Part shown: positions 5,617 to 45,289 of the stretch, in pieces | Position numbering within the stretch: position 1 is the first letter of the stretch | How the letters are laid out: every line of letters starts with the position of its first letter | Sequence record: OK272489.1 | Source: Escherichia phage JLBYU19 | Strand: one strand, 5' to 3' | DNA: 49,897 nucleotides | Made by a program: the position numbers and the translations under genes | The notes under the pieces: generated by a model | What the model was told of the DNA's origin: nothing | Seen by the model: only the letters and a program-made list of their open reading frames with translations | Database searches by the model: none

Positions 5617-6732
5617 ATGAAAAATGTAAAAATTACAGATGAGCAATTCAAGATCGAACGGGCGGCAGGTAAGACATATAAACAGATCGCTCAAGAGTAC
5701 GGAATGAATGTGAGAAGCGTCGAGCGTCGCGCGGCGCGTCTTGCAAAGCAAGGACAGCTATCGACCATCGGAGCGCCTGGTTTTGGTGTTCATGGTGAGT
5801 CAGTAATGACTGACAAAGAAGGAAATATAATCCTCAAGTGGACCAAAACCAGCAAGGATAAAGAGCAATTAGAGGCATTGATGCGCGCAGCTATGGAGGC
5901 GTTTAGCGAGGAAGTGCCGCGATTAGATCCAGTTCCATTGCAGGAGCGTAATTATAATGAAACGCTTTCATTGTATCCGATCTTTGACATGCACTTAGGC
6001 GCTATGGCCCATAAGCACGAATGCGGCGAAAATTGGGATACTGCGACGGCAGAGCGCGTTATGAATAACTTTATCGACTATGCTTTGATGTGCGCGCCGG
6101 ACAGCGAAAAGGCTGTTATCCTGATTGGTGGCGATATGCTTCATAGCGATGGCCTGGAGGCTGTGACACCTGCAAGCGGTCACGTACTTGATCAAGATAG
6201 CCGATATGCAAAATTGGTTTACGTTGCAATCCGTGCAATGCGTCGCGCAATTAATAAAATGCTGTTAAAGCATAAACATGTTGAGGTGCAGATCGTAGAG
6301 GGGAATCACGACCAATCAGGAATGATTTGGCTACGCGCAGCGATGGCGGCAGCATATGAGAACGAGCCGCGCGTTTACGTTGATGTTTCTCCTCGCGTTG
6401 TTCACCACACGCAATACGGAAAAACTTTCCTTGCGTACCATCACGGGCACACAGTGCGTAAACCGGAGACTTTGCTAATGATGTGCGCGTCAGATTGGCG
6501 GGAGGACTTCGGGAACTCAAAAACGATGTATGCGCACGTAGGGCACTGGCATCACCAGACCGTAACAGAAACGTCGCTTGGCATCGTGGAGGTGCATAGC
6601 ACCCTGGCGGCAAAAGACGCATACGCCGCGCGAGGTGGCTGGAGATCTCGACGCCGTGCGGCGGTTATCATTTACGACAAAGAGCATGGAGAGGTCGGGC
6701 GATTTGTCCACTATCCAGAAATGATGAATTGA
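5617..6732 (+). CDS. metallophosphoesterase (calcineurin-like) with N-terminal HTH-like segment
   Basis: 371 aa from ATG 5617; motifs DMH, GGDMLHSDG, GNHD, HHGH, GHWHH; N-terminal TYKQIAQEYGMNVRSVERRAARL. Confidence 0.7.
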   Translation: MKNVKITDEQFKIERAAGKTYKQIAQEYGMNVRSVERRAARLAKQGQLSTIGAPGFGVHGESVMTDKEGNIILKWTKTSKDKEQLEALMRAAMEAFSEEVPRLDPVPLQERNYNETLSLYPIFDMHLGAMAHKHECGENWDTATAERVMNNFIDYALMCAPDSEKAVILIGGDMLHSDGLEAVTPASGHVLDQDSRYAKLVYVAIRAMRRAINKMLLKHKHVEVQIVEGNHDQSGMIWLRAAMAAAYENEPRVYVDVSPRVVHHTQYGKTFLAYHHGHTVRKPETLLMMCASDWREDFGNSKTMYAHVGHWHHQTVTETSLGIVEVHSTLAAKDAYAARGGWRSRRRAAVIIYDKEHGEVGRFVHYPEMMN

Positions 6733-6777
6733 TGAATTTTTATTTAAATCAATGACAAATTAAATCAAAAACTTGCA

Positions 6778-6808
6778 AAGGGGCGGCGTTTGTCGCCTCT
6801 TTTTTTTG
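6778..6808 (+). terminator. intrinsic terminator after phosphoesterase gene
   Basis: GC-rich imperfect hairpin GGGGCGGCG/CGCCTC followed by T8. Confidence 0.5.
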
Positions 6809-6878
6809 TTTAATTTTTTTACCATGTGCGTTTATCATGCGGTCAATATATTGACTTTAATTAATATGGAGAATAAAA

Positions 6879-7094
6879 ATGAAAGATTTTATTAACGCAG
6901 CTACCGCCGGATCTGGCGGTTCATCTATCGCAAGCGCCGCTACAGGGCAGTTAACCATTGCTATTGCCAGTTTTATTTTAATGGCTGCATTCGGTGCGTG
7001 GGGCGCTTACCTTCGCTGGCGTGATAGTAAAAAATTCCACGAGGCGATCGAAAAAGGTGATATTCAAAAAGCTATTGAGATCAGGGGCAAGTAA
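6879..7094 (+). CDS. holin (single TMD, pinholin-like)
   Basis: 71 aa; one hydrophobic helix [19 protein letters not shown], charged C-terminus; immediately precedes endolysin. Confidence 0.6.
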
Positions 7095-29232: not shown

Positions 29233-29257
29233 CTGATAGCATAAAAAAACATTGCAC

Positions 29258-29276
29258 GTTTAACAAAAAGTGCTAT
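29258..29276 (-). promoter_or_regulatory. conserved junction element, oriented away from adjacent capsid gene
   Basis: plus strand reads GTTTAACAAAAAGTGCTAT; flanked by inverted repeat TGATAGCA (29234) / TGCTATCA (29271). Confidence 0.45.
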
Positions 29277-29282
29277 CATCTA

Positions 29283-32970: not shown

Positions 32971-33010
32971 CATTCCTGTAAAATCAATCTATCAAATAAA
33001 TTAATTCCAC

Positions 33011-33029
33011 TTTTAACAAAAAGTGCTAT
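33011..33029 (-). promoter_or_regulatory. conserved junction element, oriented away from adjacent tail chaperone gene
   Basis: plus strand reads TTTTAACAAAAAGTGCTAT immediately followed by AAGGAG RBS of 33044 gene. Confidence 0.45.
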
Positions 33030-33043
33030 AAGGAGATCTTAAG

Positions 33044-38962: not shown

Positions 38963-41900
38963 ATGGCTAAATATATGATAAGCGGCAGCAAGGGCGGAAG
39001 CAAAAAGCCATACGTGCCAAAAGAGATGGAAGATAACCTTATCTCGATAAACAAGATTAAAGTTTTGCTGGCTGTATCTGATGGCGAGTGCGATCCAGAT
39101 TTCACGTTGCGCGATCTTTATCTTGATGATGTTCCGGTTATTGCCAGCGATGGCACTGTTAACTACGAGGGAGTTACGGCTGAATATCGACCAGGTACGC
39201 AGACGCAAGATTACATCCAGGGTTTTACTGACACATCAAGTGAGGTGACAGTTGCAAGAGATATTACCGGAGACAATCCTTATATTATTTCTGTTACAAA
39301 TAAAAATCTATCTGCGGTAAGAATAAAGATCCTGATGCCAGTAGGCATTAAAACAGAGGATAACGGCGATCTTGTTGGCGTAAGGGTTGAGTATGCCGTA
39401 GATATGGCTGTTGATGGCGGTTCTTATAGCGAGGTTATGAGAGATGTAATTGACGGCAAGACAAGATCAGGATACGACCGCAGCAGAAGGATTGATCTTC
39501 CTAAGTTTGATGAGCGCGTTTTAATCCGAGTAAAGCGACTGACTCCAGACAGCACATCTTCAAAGGTGACTGATAAAATCAAGCTGCAAAGTTACGCTGA
39601 GGTTATTGATGCAAAATTCCGCTATCCTCTGACTGGACTTGTATTCGTAGAATTTGACAGCGAATTGTTTCCTACGCAAATCCCTAACATTTCTATAAAA
39701 AAGAAATGGAAGATTATTAATGTGCCAAGCAACTATGATCCAATATCAAGAGAATATCACGGGTCATGGGATGGGACTTTTAAAAAAGCGTGGTCAAATA
39801 ATCCTGCTTGGGTTCTTTATGATCTGGTGACAAATCAGCGTTATGGACTTGATCAGCGAGAGTTAGGAATACAGATCGACAAGTGGAGCTTATACGAGGC
39901 GGGCGTTTACTGCGATCAGAAAGTTCCAGACGGTAAAGGCGGCACTGAGCCTCGCTACCTATGCGATGTGGTGATTCAGAATCAAGTTGAGGCTTATCAG
40001 CTAATCCGTGACATTTGCTCAATCTTTCGCGGAATGAGTTTTTGGAATGGTGAGAGCTTATCAATCGTGATTGATAAGCCGCGCGATCCATCATACGTGT
40101 TTACTAATGAAAACGTCATCAACGGTGATTTTCAGTACACAAACGCAAGCGAAAAAAGCATGTACACGCAGTGTAACGTGACGTTTGACGACGAACAAAA
40201 CATGTATCAGCAGGACGTAGAGGGGGTTTTTGATACTGAGGCGGCATTACGATTTGGATACAACCCAACAAGCATTACAGCGATCGGGTGTACGCGCAGG
40301 AGCGAAGCGAATCGTCGCGGTCGTTGGGTTTTGAAAACAAACCTTAGAAGCACTACTGTAAACTTTGCTACCGGACTAGAGGGGATGATTCCATCAATAG
40401 GTGATGTTATTGCTATCGCTGATAATTTTCAGAGTAGCAACCTAACGTTAAACCTATCGGGCCGAGTAATGGAAGTTTCAGGGCTGCAGGTTTTCGTTCC
40501 GTTTAAGGTTGATGCTCGCCCTGGTGATTTTATTATCATCAACAAGCCGGACGGCAAGCCAGTTAAGCGCACGATCTCAAAGGTTAGCGCAGACGGAAAA
40601 ACCATTGAGTTAAATATTGGATTTGGTTTTGATGTTAAGCCTGATACTGTTTTTGCGATTGACCGTACTGATCTTGCGTTGCAGCAATACGTTGTGACAA
40701 CCATCAGCAAGGGTGATGACGAAGACGAGTTTACCTATTCAATCACGGCTGTAGAGTACGATCCGAACAAATACGACGAGATTGATTATGGAGTAAACAT
40801 TGATGACAGACCGACTTCAATTGTTCAGCCTGACGTGATGGCAGCGCCTGAGAACGTTAAGATCTCATCTTATTCTCGCGTCGTGCAGGGTGTTAGCGTT
40901 GAGACTATGGTTGTTTCATGGGATAAGGTTCCTTACGCATCGCTTTATGAAATGCAGTGGCGAAAAGGTGATGGTAACTGGCTGAATACGCCGCAGACCG
41001 CTAACAAAGAGATAGAGGTAGAAGGGATTTACTCTGGCAACTACCAAGTAAGGGTGAGATCCGTTTCTGCAAGCGGTAACGCTTCCCCGTGGTCAAAGAT
41101 TGCAACCGCCACTCTGACAGGTAAAGTTGGAGAGCCAGGAGCGCCGATTAATCTTACGGCTTCTGATAATGAAGTTTTTGGCATTCGTGTCAAATGGGGT
41201 ATGCCGGAAGGATCAGGCGATACGGCTTACATTGAGCTTCACCAATCGCCAGACGGAACGGTTGAAAACTCAAGTCTGCTTACGCTGATTCCATATCCTC
41301 AATATGAGTATTGGCATAGCACGTTACCAGCGGGGCAAGTTGTATGGTATAGAATCCGCAGCGTTGACAGAATAGGCAACGTTTCAAGCTGGACTGACTT
41401 TGTTCGCGGCATGGCGTCAGATGACGTTGAATCTGTTTTGGGCGACATTCTGGACAAGATTTTTGATACAGAAGCTGGTCAAGAAATCAAAGAGAACGCC
41501 ATAGACAGTGCCAATAAAATCAAAGACCAGGCGCAATCAATCATACAGAACGCGTTGGCAAATGATGCAGATGTGAAGTGGACGCGAGTGCAAAACGGAA
41601 AGCGCAAGGCTGAATATGGTCATGCTCTTGAGCTTATCGCCAATGAAACAGAAGCGCGCGTAACTCAAATCGAAGAATTAAGGGCATCAATTGATGGCGA
41701 GATAACATCAAGCATCAAGACAGTGCAGGAGGCAATTGCCACTGAATCAGAGACGCGAGCGACTCAAATTCAGCAGCTTGATTCTAAATTCACAAAAGAA
41801 ATCGACGGCGTGCGCAAGGATACTTCTGCAAGCATTAGCGATGTAAGGCAGACAATCACTAACGAGTCAGAAGCGCGCGCTCAGGCCGTTCAGCAGCTTG

Positions 41901-42541
41901 ACGCTAAGTTCACGAAAGAGATAAACGACCTTGACGGAGTTATCAAAACAGAAGTCGAGGCTAACATCTCAGAAGTGAAACAGGCGATCGCCAATGAGAC
42001 AGAGGCAAGGGTTCAGGCTGACCAGGCATTAACAGCACGATTTGGCGACGTTGAATCTGCATTGGTTGAAAAGTTGGATTCTTGGGCGAGCGTTGATTCA
42101 GTTGGGGCTAAATACGCTATGAAACTTGGCCTTACTTACAAAGGCCAGCAATACAGCGCAGGAATGGTGATGCAGCTTTCGCAGGGTTCATCCGGCCTTA
42201 TCTCGCAAATTTTGTTTGATGCTAACAGGTTCGCCATTATGACTAGCTCTACTGGAGGGACTTTTACTTTGCCTTTCGTGGTTGAGAATAATCAGGTTTT
42301 CATTAATAGTCTTTTGGTGAAGAACGGTTCAATCACTAATGCGATGATTGGTAATGTGATTCAGTCAAACAACTTTGTTCAAAACCAGCAAGGATGGAGG
42401 CTTGATAAAAACGGAATCTTTGAGAATTACGGATCAACGCCAGGAGAAGGAGCTACTAAATTCACCAATGAGGGATTGAAGGTAAAAGATGCAAACGGAG
42501 TATTGAGGGTTGAAGTCGGAAGGATTACCGGAAGCTGGTAA
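38963..42541 (+). CDS. central tail fiber / host-specificity protein (lambda gpJ-like)
   Basis: 1192 aa from ATG 38963; largest ORF of tail module, after gpI-like gene. Confidence 0.8.
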   Translation: MAKYMISGSKGGSKKPYVPKEMEDNLISINKIKVLLAVSDGECDPDFTLRDLYLDDVPVIASDGTVNYEGVTAEYRPGTQTQDYIQGFTDTSSEVTVARDITGDNPYIISVTNKNLSAVRIKILMPVGIKTEDNGDLVGVRVEYAVDMAVDGGSYSEVMRDVIDGKTRSGYDRSRRIDLPKFDERVLIRVKRLTPDSTSSKVTDKIKLQSYAEVIDAKFRYPLTGLVFVEFDSELFPTQIPNISIKKKWKIINVPSNYDPISREYHGSWDGTFKKAWSNNPAWVLYDLVTNQRYGLDQRELGIQIDKWSLYEAGVYCDQKVPDGKGGTEPRYLCDVVIQNQVEAYQLIRDICSIFRGMSFWNGESLSIVIDKPRDPSYVFTNENVINGDFQYTNASEKSMYTQCNVTFDDEQNMYQQDVEGVFDTEAALRFGYNPTSITAIGCTRRSEANRRGRWVLKTNLRSTTVNFATGLEGMIPSIGDVIAIADNFQSSNLTLNLSGRVMEVSGLQVFVPFKVDARPGDFIIINKPDGKPVKRTISKVSADGKTIELNIGFGFDVKPDTVFAIDRTDLALQQYVVTTISKGDDEDEFTYSITAVEYDPNKYDEIDYGVNIDDRPTSIVQPDVMAAPENVKISSYSRVVQGVSVETMVVSWDKVPYASLYEMQWRKGDGNWLNTPQTANKEIEVEGIYSGNYQVRVRSVSASGNASPWSKIATATLTGKVGEPGAPINLTASDNEVFGIRVKWGMPEGSGDTAYIELHQSPDGTVENSSLLTLIPYPQYEYWHSTLPAGQVVWYRIRSVDRIGNVSSWTDFVRGMASDDVESVLGDILDKIFDTEAGQEIKENAIDSANKIKDQAQSIIQNALANDADVKWTRVQNGKRKAEYGHALELIANETEARVTQIEELRASIDGEITSSIKTVQEAIATESETRATQIQQLDSKFTKEIDGVRKDTSASISDVRQTITNESEARAQAVQQLDAKFTKEINDLDGVIKTEVEANISEVKQAIANETEARVQADQALTARFGDVESALVEKLDSWASVDSVGAKYAMKLGLTYKGQQYSAGMVMQLSQGSSGLISQILFDANRFAIMTSSTGGTFTLPFVVENNQVFINSLLVKNGSITNAMIGNVIQSNNFVQNQQGWRLDKNGIFENYGSTPGEGATKFTNEGLKVKDANGVLRVEVGRITGSW

Positions 42542-42545
42542 AAAA

Positions 42546-42569
42546 GGGGGCATAGCCCCCTTTAATTTT
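42546..42569. terminator. bidirectional terminator between gpJ-like gene and leftward accessory operon
   Basis: GGGGGC-atag-CCCCC hairpin with flanking A- and T-tracts. Confidence 0.6.
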
Positions 42570-43182
42570 AATCATAGTGTGATGCATTTATAACCAAAAC
42601 AGATGAAGCGGTGTAAATACCAACAGGTCCAGGAGTTTGTGCAACCTGCCTAGAAAAAGAGTAGATCCCGTTACCATACGCGGCAGCTTGAGACTCAAAA
42701 ATCATGAATCCACCTAAAGCCGGATTAGGAACAGAGTTTAATGCTGTCAGTGATGGCATTATGGCGCAAGGATAGCCCATGTTAACATCAAATGCGATCC
42801 CGCTTACGCCTACTTGCTTTGCATCTAGCGGCCTCATTTTTCCATGATAAACCATTTCACCATGAGCATTATAAAACGCTATGCCGTGACTACCTGGGGG
42901 AGTCACCATATTACTAAAAGCATAAACAATAACCTCACCCTGATTATCAGATCTATCAAGTCTTATTGCGTGCCTTCCACCATTGTTAAATTGCGTGAAT
43001 GATATGTATGATTTAGCGGTCAATCTAACAAAGAAAAAACATACCCTATCAACAGGAATTGACGAAGTAAAAACGGTTCCGGTATTAGCAGATATTACGG
43101 CCCGATCAATTAGATTAACTGGAGTGAAATCTGGACTTAACCATAACGATCCGTCTGATTTTTTTATACTCATCCCGTACAT
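42568..43182 (-). CDS. hypothetical protein (leftward accessory operon)
   Basis: 204 aa from ATG 43182 (GGGGTGA RBS), 2 nt after upstream stop. Confidence 0.45.
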   Translation of the reverse strand: MYGMSIKKSDGSLWLSPDFTPVNLIDRAVISANTGTVFTSSIPVDRVCFFFVRLTAKSYISFTQFNNGGRHAIRLDRSDNQGEVIVYAFSNMVTPPGSHGIAFYNAHGEMVYHGKMRPLDAKQVGVSGIAFDVNMGYPCAIMPSLTALNSVPNPALGGFMIFESQAAAYGNGIYSFSRQVAQTPGPVGIYTASSVLVINASHYD

Positions 43183-43184
43183 TA

Positions 43185-43463
43185 TCACCCCCAAAAAGTA
43201 TATATATATCTTGAATCAGATCCAGAAAGCCCACTCCATGTAACGGTGTCGCCACTTACCCCTAAGTTTGGTGCGCCAGGGTCGCCACCACGCCAGGAAT
43301 TCATGCCAACATATATTGCTTTCAATGATTTACCTGGCGGCCTGTTTTGGTAAGTCTTGCTACCTGATGGCTGAGTGAATTTATCAAGGAAGAAAACAGG
43401 CGTTAAAAGCCCTGTAACTTCCCTTCCTCGATCGTCATATATTGCATAACCATATTGCGCCAT
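43185..43463 (-). CDS. hypothetical protein (leftward accessory operon)
   Basis: 92 aa ORF. Confidence 0.4.
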   Translation of the reverse strand: MAQYGYAIYDDRGREVTGLLTPVFFLDKFTQPSGSKTYQNRPPGKSLKAIYVGMNSWRGGDPGAPNLGVSGDTVTWSGLSGSDSRYIYTFWG

Positions 43464-43732
43464 TAATTACACCTCAAATCAATAAATTTACTTTCATTTT
43501 GCCAACGGTTGATAAATTTAACTTCTTTATTGTCAACGCTCAACCTGTATTGCTTTTGGCTGAATCTGTTTTCTCGGACTGCATTAATTTTGACTTCATG
43601 TAATCCGTTAACAGGGAATGTTTTAACGTTAAATTTTGCCGTGCAATCGATCTCCTTGAAGTTGCCAGTAGGCGACGCTGCGCATCCTGTCAGAGCGGCT
43701 ACAGTGGCGATAACTGCGATTAACTTTTTCAT
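43463..43732 (-). CDS. putative outer-membrane lipoprotein (Cor/Llp-like superinfection-exclusion candidate)
   Basis: 89 aa from ATG 43732 (AAGGAG RBS); signal peptide plus lipobox LTGC; first gene after junction element 43789. Confidence 0.5.
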   Translation of the reverse strand: MKKLIAVIATVAALTGCAASPTGNFKEIDCTAKFNVKTFPVNGLHEVKINAVRENRFSQKQYRLSVDNKEVKFINRWQNESKFIDLRCN

Positions 43733-43788
43733 CTTCAATACTCCTTAGTTGTTGTTGGATGCAACTATACACGATCTTGGGCATCGCG

Positions 43789-43807
43789 TTTAGCAAAAAG
43801 TGCTATT
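43789..43807 (-). promoter_or_regulatory. conserved junction element (AATAGCACTTTTTGCTAAA on minus strand)
   Basis: TATAGT 21-22 nt downstream on minus strand; precedes Cor-like lipoprotein operon. Confidence 0.55.
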
Positions 43808-43925
43808 TGTTATTTTTTGTTTTCCGGTGTTATCGAATTTAAGACGGCGTAAATTTAGCGCAAAATTTAGACAACATAAGATCAATAAACAATCAATAAA
43901 ATAGATATATACATATAAAATCAAT

Positions 43926-44060
43926 AGTTTATTTATTTATGTATGTATATTTGTTTTTTCTTGTTATCTGCGTTTCTTGTGGTTTTGGTTGTTTGTGGTG
44001 ATTTTTCTTTCTGAGTATCTGTATGTGCCATCATTCATGTGTATGTATATAATCCGGCGT
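43926..44060. repeat. AT/GT-rich block homologous to 15937-16075
   Basis: TTTATTTATTTATGTATGTATATTTGTTTTTTCTTGTT, TTGTGGTTTTGGTTGTTTGTGGTG, GTGTATGTATATAAT. Confidence 0.55.
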
Positions 44061-44175
44061 ATCTGAGAGAACATGGGAACAAGAAAAATAACACACATTA
44101 ATCATTAACTTATGAGTCAAATCTGTTTTCTTGCCATCTGAGAACGTTTAGAAAACAGAAAAAACAAAACAGCTA

Positions 44176-44203
44176 TTGACTAAATCAACCAAGTGGCTAC
44201 AAT
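44176..44203 (+). promoter_or_regulatory. sigma70-type promoter
   Basis: TTGACT 44176-44181, 16-nt spacer, TACAAT 44198-44203; upstream of exonuclease gene. Confidence 0.55.
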
Positions 44204-44233
44204 GCACGCATAAAGCAACAAGGAGCATTAAAG

Positions 44234-45289
44234 ATGAGTGATTTTAACGCCTACACTAGCGAAGAAATGAGCAACGAGCTTTATCATGATCCTAACGCGT
44301 GGACGGCTGAATATGTCAGCGGTTCCAGCCTGGCGGAGATTTACAGCACTTGCCCGGCGTACTGGAAGTACAAGCCGCGCCAGGAAACTAAAGCACTTGT
44401 TTTCGGTACGCAGTCGCATACCAACTTTGAAAGCAAGGAGCTATTCGAAAAAACATATCGCCGCGCACCGTCGCAGGATGATTTTAAAGACCTGATCACT
44501 AGTCAAACGGCGTTAGCATCAAAGCTGAAATCTTTTGGCCTGAAAGGTACGACGGGTAAACAATACCCTGAATTACTGGAAATGCTGTACAAGTGCGGCG
44601 AGGATCTCAATGTGTGGTGGCTTATCGAAATGATGGCAGAATGCCAGGCCGCAGCGGACGGAGTGCAGTTAATAGACGCTAAAGATTATGATGCCTGTGT
44701 AGCGATGCGGCGCGTACTTGAGGCCATACCGGAGCATAACGCTTGCATGAACAGCCCAACCGCGCAGCGTGAAATGTCAATATTTGGGATCATCAACGGC
44801 GTAAAAGTAAAAGTGCGTCTTGATCACGTTGACGTAAACAAGGATGTAAAGGCAACAATCATTAACGGTTACGACGAAAAAGGCAGGCCGATTTATGAAG
44901 AAGTCACCTATCCAGAAGCGGTGATTATCACTGACTACAAAACAACGGTTAGCGCAAATCCGGTTGACTTCCAGCGCCTGGCTTACAATCACGGCTATTA
45001 TCTTAAAATGGCTTTGCAACATGACTTATTCAAAAAGGCGTATCCAGACGAGGAAAGGCCAGTGATTGTAAGATTGCTTGCTCAAGAGAAGAAAGAGCCT
45101 TACTTGCCGCTCGCATTCCGCATGAACATTGAGCAGTTGAAGATTGGGCGTATCCAGTACATGAGCGTGATCAACAAGTTTAACGTTTGCCAGCAGTTAG
45201 ATGAATGGCCTTCGTATGCAAACGGACAACCAGAAATTGATCTTGATACTCCTGATTGGGTACGTGCTCAATTCAGGCAGTATCTGTGA
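44234..45289 (+). CDS. recombination exonuclease (PD-(D/E)xK, RecE/YqaJ-like)
   Basis: 351 aa; RLDHVD ... ITDYKTT nuclease-type motifs; first gene after sigma70-type promoter; precedes Erf and SSB. Confidence 0.5.
   Translation: MSDFNAYTSEEMSNELYHDPNAWTAEYVSGSSLAEIYSTCPAYWKYKPRQETKALVFGTQSHTNFESKELFEKTYRRAPSQDDFKDLITSQTALASKLKSFGLKGTTGKQYPELLEMLYKCGEDLNVWWLIEMMAECQAAADGVQLIDAKDYDACVAMRRVLEAIPEHNACMNSPTAQREMSIFGIINGVKVKVRLDHVDVNKDVKATIINGYDEKGRPIYEEVTYPEAVIITDYKTTVSANPVDFQRLAYNHGYYLKMALQHDLFKKAYPDEERPVIVRLLAQEKKEPYLPLAFRMNIEQLKIGRIQYMSVINKFNVCQQLDEWPSYANGQPEIDLDTPDWVRAQFRQYL

What the first reader, a model, noticed from the sequence alone, without database searches (positions are those of the whole stretch)
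42568..43807. Leftward three-gene accessory operon after the gpJ-like gene, led by a Cor/Llp-like lipoprotein and driven by an element-type promoter
Between the end of the tail module and the recombination module, three minus-strand genes are transcribed from the junction element at 43789. The first encodes an 89-aa lipoprotein (lipobox LTGC), typical of receptor-blocking superinfection-exclusion proteins. The other two (92 and 204 aa) have no recognisable motifs. Bidirectional terminators bracket the unit.
Basis: partly seen in the sequence, partly recalled or inferred. Interest (0 to 1): 0.5.

Follow-up and report, generated by a model that had tools for sequence, protein, structure and literature searches.

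The report
BtuB receptor-recognition cassette of T1-like phage
The three leftward genes after the tail-tip gene are not an optional accessory operon but the already-described swappable cassette that lets this T1-like phage recognise the E. coli vitamin B12 transporter BtuB, made of a small adaptor, a receptor-binding protein and a matching lipoprotein that probably blocks the same receptor.

Summary
Three tightly coupled minus-strand genes (89-aa lipoprotein, 92 aa, 204 aa) lie between the gpJ-like gene and recE. A copy of a 21-nt repeat precedes them and a bidirectional terminator follows.

The window is a Warwickvirus, 99.8% identical here to JK16 and JLBYU16. This position is the published "RBP locus" of small siphoviruses. 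JK16, Bas04, Bas06 and PTXU06 carry this allele and are reported to use BtuB. Bas05 has a 96%-identical gpJ but a T1-type cassette, and uses FhuA.

The two "unknown" proteins are homologues of T1 gp32 and gp31 (PHROG 557 and 425). They have no signal peptide or membrane segment. Elsewhere they occur fused and translationally coupled to gpJ, and they also occur without any lipoprotein.

The lipoprotein has a good lipobox and a Cor-like cysteine pattern. Its mature domain shows no significant Cor or Llp homology, so exclusion is inferred, not shown.

This is known biology and of low to moderate interest.

The parts
38963..42541 (+). gpJ-like central tail fibre / tail-tip protein (1192 aa from the ATG at 38963). 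It provides the docking platform and is context for the cassette.
   Evidence: ORF. It is 95.8% aa identical to Bas05 J and 89.6% to Bas06 J. The last ~40 aa are identical to the Bas04 type but only 64-70% identical to Bas05.
42543..42563 (.). Bidirectional intrinsic terminator between the convergent gpJ gene and the cassette.
   Evidence: Hairpin AAAGGGGGCATAGCCCCCTTT, 9 pairs of which 6 are GC. T-runs follow on both strands (TTTAATTTT on +, TTTTTTACC on -).
42568..43182 (-). 204-aa candidate BtuB receptor-binding protein (T1 gp31 family, PHROG 425). Databases mis-name it 'membrane associated protein'.
43185..43463 (-). 92-aa small partner or adaptor protein (T1 gp32 family, PHROG 557). Databases mis-name it 'outer membrane protein'.
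   Evidence: PHROG 557 E 4.3e-20. It has no hydrophobic segment (max KD19 0.55). It is always encoded just upstream of the large protein. In about 12 cluster representatives it is fused N-terminally to the large protein.
43463..43732 (-). 89-aa outer-membrane lipoprotein, the candidate BtuB-directed superinfection-exclusion protein.
43764..43769 (-). -10-like hexamer TATAGT, 17 nt downstream of the repeat element.
   Evidence: Read from the sequence. GATCGTGTATAGTT is conserved in Bas04, Bas05 and Bas06 while the spacer varies.
43787..43807 (-). Copy of the 21-nt direct repeat of T1-like phages (aaATAGCACnnnTTGnTAAAA). It is a putative promoter or regulatory element for the operon.
   Evidence: It is one of 15 copies in the window. 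It begins 75 nt upstream of the ATG and points in the direction of transcription, as described for TLS. It is conserved upstream of the lipoprotein or cor gene in Bas04, Bas05 and Bas06.

Best explanation
This is the BtuB allele of the exchangeable receptor-recognition cassette that small siphoviruses carry just downstream of gpJ.

One minus-strand transcript probably starts behind the 21-nt repeat at 43787-43807 and ends at the bidirectional terminator at 42543-42563. It encodes three translationally coupled proteins.

- The 204-aa protein (T1 gp31 family) is the terminal receptor-binding protein. I infer that it sits on the distal tip of the gpJ fibre together with the 92-aa protein (T1 gp32 family, described elsewhere as an Ig-like adaptor). 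I also infer that it binds the extracellular face of the TonB-dependent transporter BtuB through a variable region around residues 140-195, which triggers DNA ejection.
- The 89-aa lipoprotein is exported, lipidated at Cys17 and sorted to the inner leaflet of the outer membrane. I infer that it binds the periplasmic side of BtuB and makes it unusable for this phage and other BtuB phages, by analogy with T5 Llp on FhuA and Rtp45 on LptD.

Because adhesin and blocker are one recombination unit, receptor switches move both specificities together.

Shown:
- gene structure;
- family membership of the two proteins;
- correlation of the allele with BtuB use in four phages from three genera, against FhuA in a near-isogenic relative;
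- absence of membrane features;
- fold match to a solved RBP.

Inferred:
- direct BtuB binding by p204;
- a p92-p204 heterodimer on the J tip;
- exclusion by the lipoprotein;
- promoter activity of the repeat.
For: Identity of the phage:
- The locus is 99.8% identical to JK16 and JLBYU16 and 93-99% identical to other Warwickviruses.

Receptor use:
- JK16 RB-TnSeq gives btuB as the top hit (fitness 14.1), together with sdaC and dcrB. Bas04 and Bas06 give the same three genes.
- Maffei's S5 Table lists BtuB as the terminal receptor for Bas04 and Bas06, and FhuA for Bas05.
- PMC10373560 names PTXU06 as BtuB-dependent.

The cassette in relatives:
- The three proteins are 97.8%, 98.9% and 98.5% identical in Bas04, and 56%, 70% and 64% identical in Bas06.
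- PTXU06 (Dhillonvirus) carries the same three genes in the same order.

Cassette swap:
- Bas05 has a gpJ 95.8% identical to the window's, but nucleotide homology breaks at 42544-43678. That span is replaced by a T1-type gp32/gp31/cor set.
- The gpJ tip does not track the receptor. Bas06 and PTXU06 (BtuB) have the tip type seen in the FhuA phages.

Family membership:
- p204 matches PHROG 425 and p92 matches PHROG 557, as do T1 gp31/gp32 and phi24B vb_24B_42.
- The deep p204-family HMM hits T1 gp31 at 1e-30 and Bas05_24 at 7e-27.

Structural role:
- Neither protein has a signal peptide or TM segment.
- p92-like and p204-like parts are fused in ~315-aa proteins. Their start overlaps the stop of a J-like gene in 3 of 3 contexts examined.
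- The pair occurs without any lipoprotein in JenP2 and in 933W/phi24B.
- phi24B gp54 (204 aa, 44% identical) was detected in purified virions. A density at the needle tip is consistent in size with a gp54/gp55 heterodimer.
- Oekolampad's locus has the same layout: J(+), then on the minus strand the SE lipoprotein followed by the RBP.

Lipoprotein:
- It has a lipobox, invariant C17/C30/C88 with a Cor-like topology, and weak fold similarity to Llp.
Against: - No experiment shows that p204 binds BtuB or that p92 and p204 are in this phage's virion. The virion evidence comes from a 44%-identical podovirus homologue in a preprint.
- The fold match to RBP_Oeko is partial: 150 of 204 residues at 4.7 A. 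Foldseek global TM is only 0.31 with E 5.9e-3. Sequence similarity to RBP_Oeko is not significant.
- The published AF3 BtuB-RBP model for Bas04 has a modest ipTM of 0.47, although Bas06 reaches 0.82. I could not verify which CDS those authors modelled.
- Placing the RBP genes behind the lipoprotein's repeat element, rather than in the late tail operon, is unexpected for a structural gene, and expression timing is unknown.
- One recent paper (PMC13164509) reads the two proteins as membrane proteins that assist exclusion.
Confidence: 0.72

Rival explanations
1. Accessory or moron operon, as read by the first-stage reader and by the 'extended cor cassette' view. All three proteins are non-structural. 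The lipoprotein blocks the receptor, and the 92- and 204-aa proteins are membrane-associated helpers of exclusion.
For: [quoted passage not shown]
- In this allele the two genes are co-transcribed with the lipoprotein, not with the tail operon.
- PMC13164509 proposes that the T1 homologues are related to the Sie mechanism.
Against: - Neither protein has a signal peptide, lipobox or TM segment.
- Membrane-affinity estimates in PMC12309495 argue against membrane insertion of the homologues.
- The pair exists without any lipoprotein in JenP2 and 933W/phi24B.
- In FhuA-type phages the pair lies on the gpJ strand while cor is on the other strand.
- Fused versions are translationally coupled to gpJ.
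- The phi24B homologue was found in virions.
- The fold matches a solved RBP.
- Without these proteins the phage would have no identified BtuB determinant, because gpJ is 96% identical to that of a FhuA phage.
Confidence: 0.1
2. The 92- and 204-aa proteins are tail-tip assembly factors or structural spacers that do not touch the receptor. BtuB is contacted by another protein, either the last ~40 residues of gpJ or the lateral fibre.
For: [quoted passage not shown]
- The last ~40 aa of gpJ co-vary with the cassette between the window or Bas04 and Bas05.
- bioRxiv 2026 finds receptor-associated k-mers in the GpJ C-terminal tip.
Against: - Bas06 and PTXU06 use BtuB but carry the gpJ tip sequence seen in FhuA phages.
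- Sequence variation in p204 concentrates in residues ~140-195 when compared with homologues from phages not assigned to BtuB: 15-37% identity there against 60-70% elsewhere.
- The homologous-fold protein of Oekolampad binds its receptor directly in a cryo-EM structure.
Confidence: 0.12
3. The lipoprotein is not a receptor blocker. It has another envelope role, for example protecting progeny from inactivation on debris by another route, or a lysis or envelope function.
For: - The mature domain has no significant homology to Cor or Llp.
- Weak PHROG hits to spanin-like signal peptides are seen.
- The AF2 model is only moderately confident.
Against: - It occupies exactly the position of cor, Llp-like and Rtp45-like genes in sister cassettes, and it swaps together with receptor specificity.
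- The phage already has a u-spanin in its lysis module (annotations of Bas05 and Bas06).
- It shows a Cor-like Cys topology and a C-terminal (W/Y)xxExxFxxxxC motif.
Confidence: 0.06

Closest known systems
'Bona fide RBP locus' downstream of gpJ in Drexlerviridae, Dhillonvirus and Queuovirinae: BtuB allele of Bas04 FritzSarasin, JK16 and Bas06 (Maffei et al. 2021, PMC8594841; bioRxiv 10.64898/2026.04.02.716166)
   Same: It has the same position, the same three genes and the same order. Identity is 98-100% aa to Bas04 and JK16. BtuB dependence was determined experimentally for those phages.
   Different: Nothing substantive. The window is another isolate of the same allele. Those papers infer the roles from correlation and AlphaFold3 models, not from biochemistry.
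T1 gp32 / gp31 / Cor (also N15 gp22/gp23/Cor, HK022, phi80): the FhuA allele
   Same: The small and large proteins belong to the same PHROGs (557 and 425). The family HMM hits T1 gp31 at 1e-30. The small gene precedes the large one, and a ~75-89 aa lipoprotein with the same Cys topology is adjacent.
   Different: - In T1 and Bas05 the pair is on the gpJ strand, with only cor on the opposite strand. Here the pair is inverted and sits behind the lipoprotein in one operon.
- The receptor is BtuB, not FhuA.
- The lipoprotein's mature domain is not detectably homologous to Cor.
Oekolampad (Bas18) RBP and Rtp44, with SE lipoproteins SE_Oeko and Rtp45: the LptD allele (PNAS 2025, PMC12685063; PDB 9RPT, 9RPS)
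   Different: - Its RBP is a single 321-aa protein with no separate small partner.
- There is no significant sequence similarity, and the global TM-score is low (0.31).
- The receptor is not a TonB-dependent transporter, and Rtp45 acts by steric loop displacement.
T5 pb5 / Llp on FhuA (PDB 8A60)
   Same: This is the functional analogy: a dedicated RBP at the tip of a straight fibre, plus a small outer-membrane lipoprotein that binds the periplasmic face of a TonB-dependent transporter and allosterically abolishes RBP binding.
phi24B gp55 / gp54 (933W L0126 / L0127), downstream of the tail needle gene of short-tailed Stx phages
   Same: They are 50% and 44% identical to p92 and p204, in the same small-then-large order. 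gp54 was detected in virions and proposed as the tip RBP.
   Different: The host virus is a podovirus. There is no adjacent lipoprotein (lom follows instead). The receptor is thought to be BamA. The C-terminal region (about aa 140-195) is divergent.

Membership tests
RBP locus downstream of gpJ in small siphoviruses (Maffei 2021) | Located immediately downstream of the gpJ homologue and upstream of the recombination or lateral-fibre genes | tested here: met
   The gpJ gene ends at 42541, the cassette spans 42568-43732, and recE starts at 44234. Synteny is the same in Bas04, Bas05, Bas06 and T1.
RBP locus downstream of gpJ in small siphoviruses (Maffei 2021) | The allele tracks the terminal receptor independently of phylogeny | tested here: met
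   This allele is found in JK16, Bas04 (Warwickvirus), Bas06 (Hanrivervirus) and PTXU06 (Dhillonvirus), all reported as BtuB phages. Bas05, of the same genus with a 96%-identical gpJ, has the T1-type allele and uses FhuA.
RBP locus downstream of gpJ in small siphoviruses (Maffei 2021) | The encoded protein physically binds the receptor | not testable with these tools
   Only published AF3 models exist (ipTM 0.47 for Bas04 and 0.82 for Bas06). No multimer prediction or binding assay was available here.
T1 gp31 family (PHROG 425) | Full-length profile match | tested here: met
   E 1.8e-49, residues 1-204 against profile positions 3-224 of 224. T1 gp31 gives 9e-68 against the same profile. The A2 HMM hits T1 gp31 at 1e-30.
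T1 gp31 family (PHROG 425) | 'Membrane associated', as the family is named | tested here: not met
   There is no signal peptide or TM segment; the maximum 19-residue Kyte-Doolittle mean is 1.18. The AF2 model is a soluble all-beta protein. The family name appears to be a historical mis-annotation.
T1 gp32 family (PHROG 557) | Full-length profile match and position directly upstream of the large protein | tested here: met
   E 4.3e-20, residues 3-92 against profile positions 2-92 of 100. Gene order is conserved in T1, Bas05, Bas06, PTXU06, JenP2 and 933W.
Cor superinfection-exclusion lipoprotein (PHROG 1119) | Signal peptide with lipobox, and outer-membrane sorting | tested here: met
   MKKLIAVIATVAALTG|C, with Ala at +2.
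Cor superinfection-exclusion lipoprotein (PHROG 1119) | Homology of the mature domain | tested here: not met
   The full-length hit (E 8.5e-8) vanishes when the signal peptide is removed, whereas mature T1 Cor still scores 3e-19. hhalign of mature-only profiles gives 8% probability over 17 residues.
Cor superinfection-exclusion lipoprotein (PHROG 1119) | Blocks infection through the cognate receptor when expressed alone | not testable with these tools
   This needs plasmid expression and plating assays.
T5 Llp-like fold | Structural similarity to Llp (PDB 8A60 chain B) | tested here: inconclusive
LptD-type RBP (RBP_Oeko / Rtp44) | Shared fold | tested here: met
LptD-type RBP (RBP_Oeko / Rtp44) | Sequence homology | tested here: not met
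   The A2 HMM against RBP_Oeko gives E 0.0026 in a 24-sequence database, which is not significant. The fusion HMM gives no hit.
21-nt direct repeat of T1-like phages (TLS paper, PMC11447400) | [quoted passage not shown] | tested here: met
   AATAGCACTTTTTGCTAAAC has one mismatch at the last position. It is on the minus strand and begins 75 nt before the ATG at 43732.
Sigma-70 promoter | -35 and -10 hexamers separated by 16-18 nt | tested here: not met
   The scan calls no minus-strand promoter upstream of the lipoprotein gene. TTGCTA and TATAGT are 21 nt apart. The same long spacing recurs in the other copies.

The most novel reading that the evidence does not exclude
Three linked readings are not excluded by my evidence.

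1. The FhuA-, BtuB- and LptD-type tail-tip adhesins of small siphoviruses, and gp54 of short-tailed Stx phages, are not 'unrelated families'. They would be one ancient, fast-diverging fold that works with a small Ig-like partner, either as a separate protein or fused.
2. The BtuB-allele lipoprotein would be a new sequence family of TonB-dependent-transporter blockers that acts like Llp.
3. In this allele the adhesin is expressed from the exclusion gene's repeat-element promoter rather than from the late tail operon. If so, the 21-nt repeats would be true phage promoters active late as well as early.
Probability: 0.4. Interest if true: 0.5.

Novelty: already known. Interest (0 to 1): 0.3.

Why it matters
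The cassette decides which outer-membrane protein the phage uses, so it predicts host range and resistance routes such as btuB loss. It is also the natural unit to swap when re-targeting T1-like phages.

[quoted passage not shown] These labels hide the adsorption apparatus of T1-like, Dhillonvirus, Queuovirinae and Stx phages.

The BtuB-side biochemistry is still untested: the RBP-BtuB complex and a lipoprotein that would block a vitamin B12 and colicin E receptor from the periplasm. It is directly approachable with the same methods already used for FhuA and LptD.

Tried and rejected
- **Pfam:** no family for any of the three proteins except a sub-threshold lipoprotein signal.
- **PDB sequence search:** nothing for p204 or the lipoprotein, even at E 10.
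- **p92 as a paralogue of the p204 N-terminus:** both start with a YGxxIY(D/N)xxG motif. BLASTP was not significant. hhalign gave 49% probability over 21 residues, matching the internal repeat at p204 residues 98-119. I keep this as a hint only.
- **Lipoprotein as a Cor family member:** rejected at sequence level after removing the signal peptide.
- **Llp-like fold:** inconclusive.
- **Canonical sigma-70 promoter at the element:** not found. An extended -10 reading does not fit consistently across the copies.
- **Second terminator upstream of the unit:** none found.
- **gpJ tip as receptor determinant:** rejected, because BtuB phages Bas06 and PTXU06 carry the FhuA-phage tip type.
- **Which CDS the 2026 preprint modelled as the RBP:** its private CDS numbers could not be mapped.
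Full report
**What is there**

The window is a T1-like phage genome. The 1.9 kb around the finding is 99.8% identical to Escherichia phages JLBYU16 and JLBYU38 and to Shigella phage JK16. It is 93-99% identical to many other Warwickviruses such as tonn, tunus, swan01 and SECphi27.

- The 89-aa lipoprotein gene lies at 43463-43732 and has the signal sequence MKKLIAVIATVAALTG|C.
- The 92-aa ORF lies at 43185-43463, and its ATG overlaps the lipoprotein stop.
- The 204-aa ORF lies at 42568-43182 and starts 2 nt after the 92-aa stop.

Each ORF has a Shine-Dalgarno sequence. The start MYG of the 204-aa protein is invariant in its family.

A strong hairpin at 42543-42563, with T-runs on both strands, separates the unit from the convergent gpJ-like gene. 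I found no terminator on the upstream side in 43740-44240, so the unit is terminated at one end rather than bracketed.

**The upstream element**

AATAGCACTTTTTGCTAAACG at 43787-43807 (-) is one of 15 copies of AATAGCACTTTTTGTTAAAAC in the window.

A -10-like hexamer follows almost every copy after 17-18 nt. Here it is TATAGT at 43769-43764. The element and GATCGTGTATAGTT are conserved upstream of the lipoprotein or cor gene in Bas04, Bas05 and Bas06, while the spacer between them varies.

This repeat has been described in phage TLS. Its consensus is aaATAGCACnnnTTGnTAAAA. It lies in the direction of transcription, about 76 nt upstream of start codons, and its function is unknown; stoperator, enhancer site and UP-like element have been proposed (PMC11447400). 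Our copy begins 75 nt before the ATG.

It is not a canonical sigma-70 promoter. TTGCTA and TATAGT are 21 nt apart, and the scan does not call it. 'Driven by an element-type promoter' is therefore a reasonable inference, not a demonstrated fact.

**What the locus is**

The position directly downstream of gpJ is the published 'bona fide RBP locus' of Drexlerviridae, Dhillonvirus and Queuovirinae. Its alleles match the terminal receptor, and it is thought to encode RBPs together with cognate exclusion proteins (PMC8594841; confirmed at larger scale in bioRxiv 10.64898/2026.04.02.716166).

The window's allele is the BtuB allele:
- Bas04 FritzSarasin has the three proteins at 97.8%, 98.9% and 98.5% identity and is listed with BtuB as terminal receptor.
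- For JK16, which is essentially identical to the window here, RB-TnSeq gives btuB as the top gene, plus sdaC and dcrB. Bas04 and Bas06 give the same three genes.
- Bas06 belongs to a different genus and is a BtuB phage. It has the same three genes in the same order at 56%, 70% and 64% identity.
- The Dhillonvirus PTXU06 also has them, and PMC10373560 names it as BtuB-dependent.

**A natural swap experiment**

Bas05 PeterMerian belongs to the same genus and uses FhuA. Its gpJ is 95.8% identical to the window's. Nucleotide homology runs to the end of gpJ, breaks at 42544-43678, and resumes inside the lipoprotein signal-peptide codons.

Across the break Bas05 has the T1 arrangement. Two plus-strand genes of 103 and 197 aa are followed by a minus-strand 75-aa cor, as in T1 gp32, gp31 and Cor. 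So the mature lipoprotein, the small protein and the large protein are exchanged as one unit along with the receptor.

The last ~40 residues of gpJ also differ between the window or Bas04 and Bas05. However, the BtuB phages Bas06 and PTXU06 carry the tip type seen in FhuA phages. The gpJ tip is therefore not the receptor determinant.

**The two 'unknown' proteins**

They are not without recognisable relatives. The 204-aa protein matches PHROG 425 over its full length (E 1.8e-49), and the 92-aa protein matches PHROG 557 (E 4.3e-20). These are the families of T1 gp31 and gp32, of the Bas05 pair, and of phi24B vb_24B_42.

An exhaustive profile search found 125 cluster representatives. A profile of 73 of them hits T1 gp31 at 1e-30 and Bas05_24 at 7e-27. 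The BtuB-type and FhuA-type large proteins are thus one family, although the 2026 preprint calls the receptor-specific families unrelated.

The PHROG names 'membrane associated protein' and 'outer membrane protein' are not supported. Neither protein has a signal peptide or hydrophobic segment. PMC12309495 reaches the same conclusion for homologues.

**Evidence for a tail-tip role**

1. About a dozen representatives are ~315-aa fusions. The N-terminal ~95 residues match the p92 profile and the rest matches p204. In all three contexts I examined, the fusion gene starts on the stop codon of a J-like gene. In two of them a small opposite-strand lipoprotein with Cor-like cysteines follows.
2. The pair exists without any lipoprotein in Nonagvirus JenP2, convergent with J. 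The same is true in the short-tailed Stx phages 933W and phi24B, downstream of the needle gene.
3. In phi24B the 204-aa homologue gp54, 44% identical, was detected in the virion proteome. [quoted passage not shown]
4. The AlphaFold2 model of p204 is confident (pLDDT 93, pTM 0.87, all-beta).
   - Foldseek also ranks this chain first (prob 0.99), but with low global TM (0.31), so the match is partial.
   - Oekolampad's locus has the same layout as the window: an SE lipoprotein followed by the RBP, convergent with gpJ.
5. Compared with the 933W and JenP2 homologues, p204 is 60-70% identical at both ends but only 15-37% identical in residues ~140-195. It stays 55-65% identical there among BtuB phages. 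That pattern is what a specificity region would show.

**The lipoprotein**

Its signal peptide, lipobox and Ala at +2 predict an outer-membrane lipoprotein. C17, C30 and C88 are invariant in 13 relatives. This matches the Cor pattern: one Cys just after the anchor and one at the C-terminus.

The PHROG Cor hit (8.5e-8) depends on the signal peptide, and it disappears for the mature domain. Profile-profile comparison of mature domains aligns only a C-terminal (W/Y)xxExxFxxxxC motif, at 8% probability.

An exclusion role against BtuB is therefore inferred from three things:
- position;
- co-exchange with the receptor allele;
- precedent from Llp on FhuA and Rtp45 on LptD (PMC9586334; PMC12685063).

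It is not a demonstrable member of the Cor family.

**Mechanism proposed**

- One transcript runs from behind the repeat element to the bidirectional terminator and makes the blocker, the adaptor and the adhesin.
- p92 and p204 assemble on the gpJ tip, and p204 binds the extracellular loops of BtuB.
- DNA entry then needs SdaC and DcrB.
- The lipoprotein reaches the inner leaflet of the outer membrane and inactivates BtuB from the periplasmic side.

The main oddity is that the adhesin genes are inverted here relative to T1 and depend on the lipoprotein's upstream element. The Oekolampad LptD allele shares this arrangement.

**Verdict**

- The locus type and its BtuB assignment are already published for virtually identical phages, so the novelty rating is 'already known'.
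- Two modest additions come from this analysis. The FhuA- and BtuB-type proteins are clearly homologous to each other, and p204 shares part of its fold with the solved LptD RBP.
- Direct binding, virion presence in this phage, exclusion and promoter activity all remain untested.

Noticed in passing
window, 15 sites: 1474, 3963, 5034, 8278, 10440, 11114, 13804, 14310, 15614, 20413, 24631, 29257, 33010, 43787, 49809: A 21-nt repeat, AATAGCACTTTTTGTTAAAAC, is usually followed after 17-18 nt by a -10-like hexamer (CATAAT, TATATT or TACATT), and in several copies by CATCGA. Most copies point toward the downstream gene. The copies at 29257-29277 and 33010-33030 lie antisense within the plus-strand head and tail modules. 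The TTG(T/C)TA-to--10 spacing of 21-22 nt is too long for a standard sigma-70 promoter. The repeat is described in TLS with unknown function.
   Followed up: partly
L003 (933W) 6714-6995; L011 (phi24B) 2268-2495: The Stx-phage small protein (L0126, vb_24B_41, gp55) is annotated as 75 aa. The conserved N-terminal motif (YGFAIYN...VTG, invariant columns in the p92 family) lies upstream of the annotated ATG. The ORF extended to a GTG start gives 93 aa and aligns end to end with p92. The annotated start is probably wrong, which may matter for the reported failure to detect gp55 by proteomics.
   Followed up: partly
window 41636-42011 (inside gpJ): There are four to five tandem ~120-nt (about 40-aa) repeats in the C-terminal third of gpJ (ANETEAR...QQLD.KFTKEI...). 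They look like a coiled-coil or rod segment. This stretch is the most divergent part of gpJ between the window and Bas04 (32-55% aa identity), although both carry the same cassette.
   Followed up: no
window 43808-44233: A 426-bp AT-rich intergenic region lies between the cassette and recE. It contains overlapping TTTATTTATGTATGTATAT-type repeats and a plus-strand promoter-like site (TTGACT-16-TACAAT, 44176-44203) just before recE. Some GenBank records annotate three tiny ORFs here (29-44 aa).
   Followed up: no
RB-TnSeq tables for JK16, Bas04 and Bas06: Phages with this cassette need the inner-membrane serine transporter SdaC and the periplasmic lipoprotein DcrB in addition to BtuB. The rows I saw for the FhuA-type Bas05 listed fhuA and dcrB but no sdaC. 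From memory, BtuB + DcrA(SdaC) + DcrB is the classical requirement of coliphage C1.
   Followed up: no
GenBank records MG065643, MG065649, MG065680, MG065681 ('Campylobacter phage' E6, A143, A113, A139): These ~49.9-kb records are labelled as Campylobacter jejuni phages. They carry this cassette at 52-64% aa identity and look like T1-like coliphages, so the host label is suspect.
   Followed up: no
L007 5176-6390; L013 276-1477; L014 1228-2196: Lambda-like prophages and metagenomic contigs encode a single ~320-aa fusion of the small and large tail-tip proteins. It is translationally coupled to gpJ. In two of the three contexts an opposite-strand ~85-aa lipoprotein with Cor-like cysteines follows.
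   Followed up: yes
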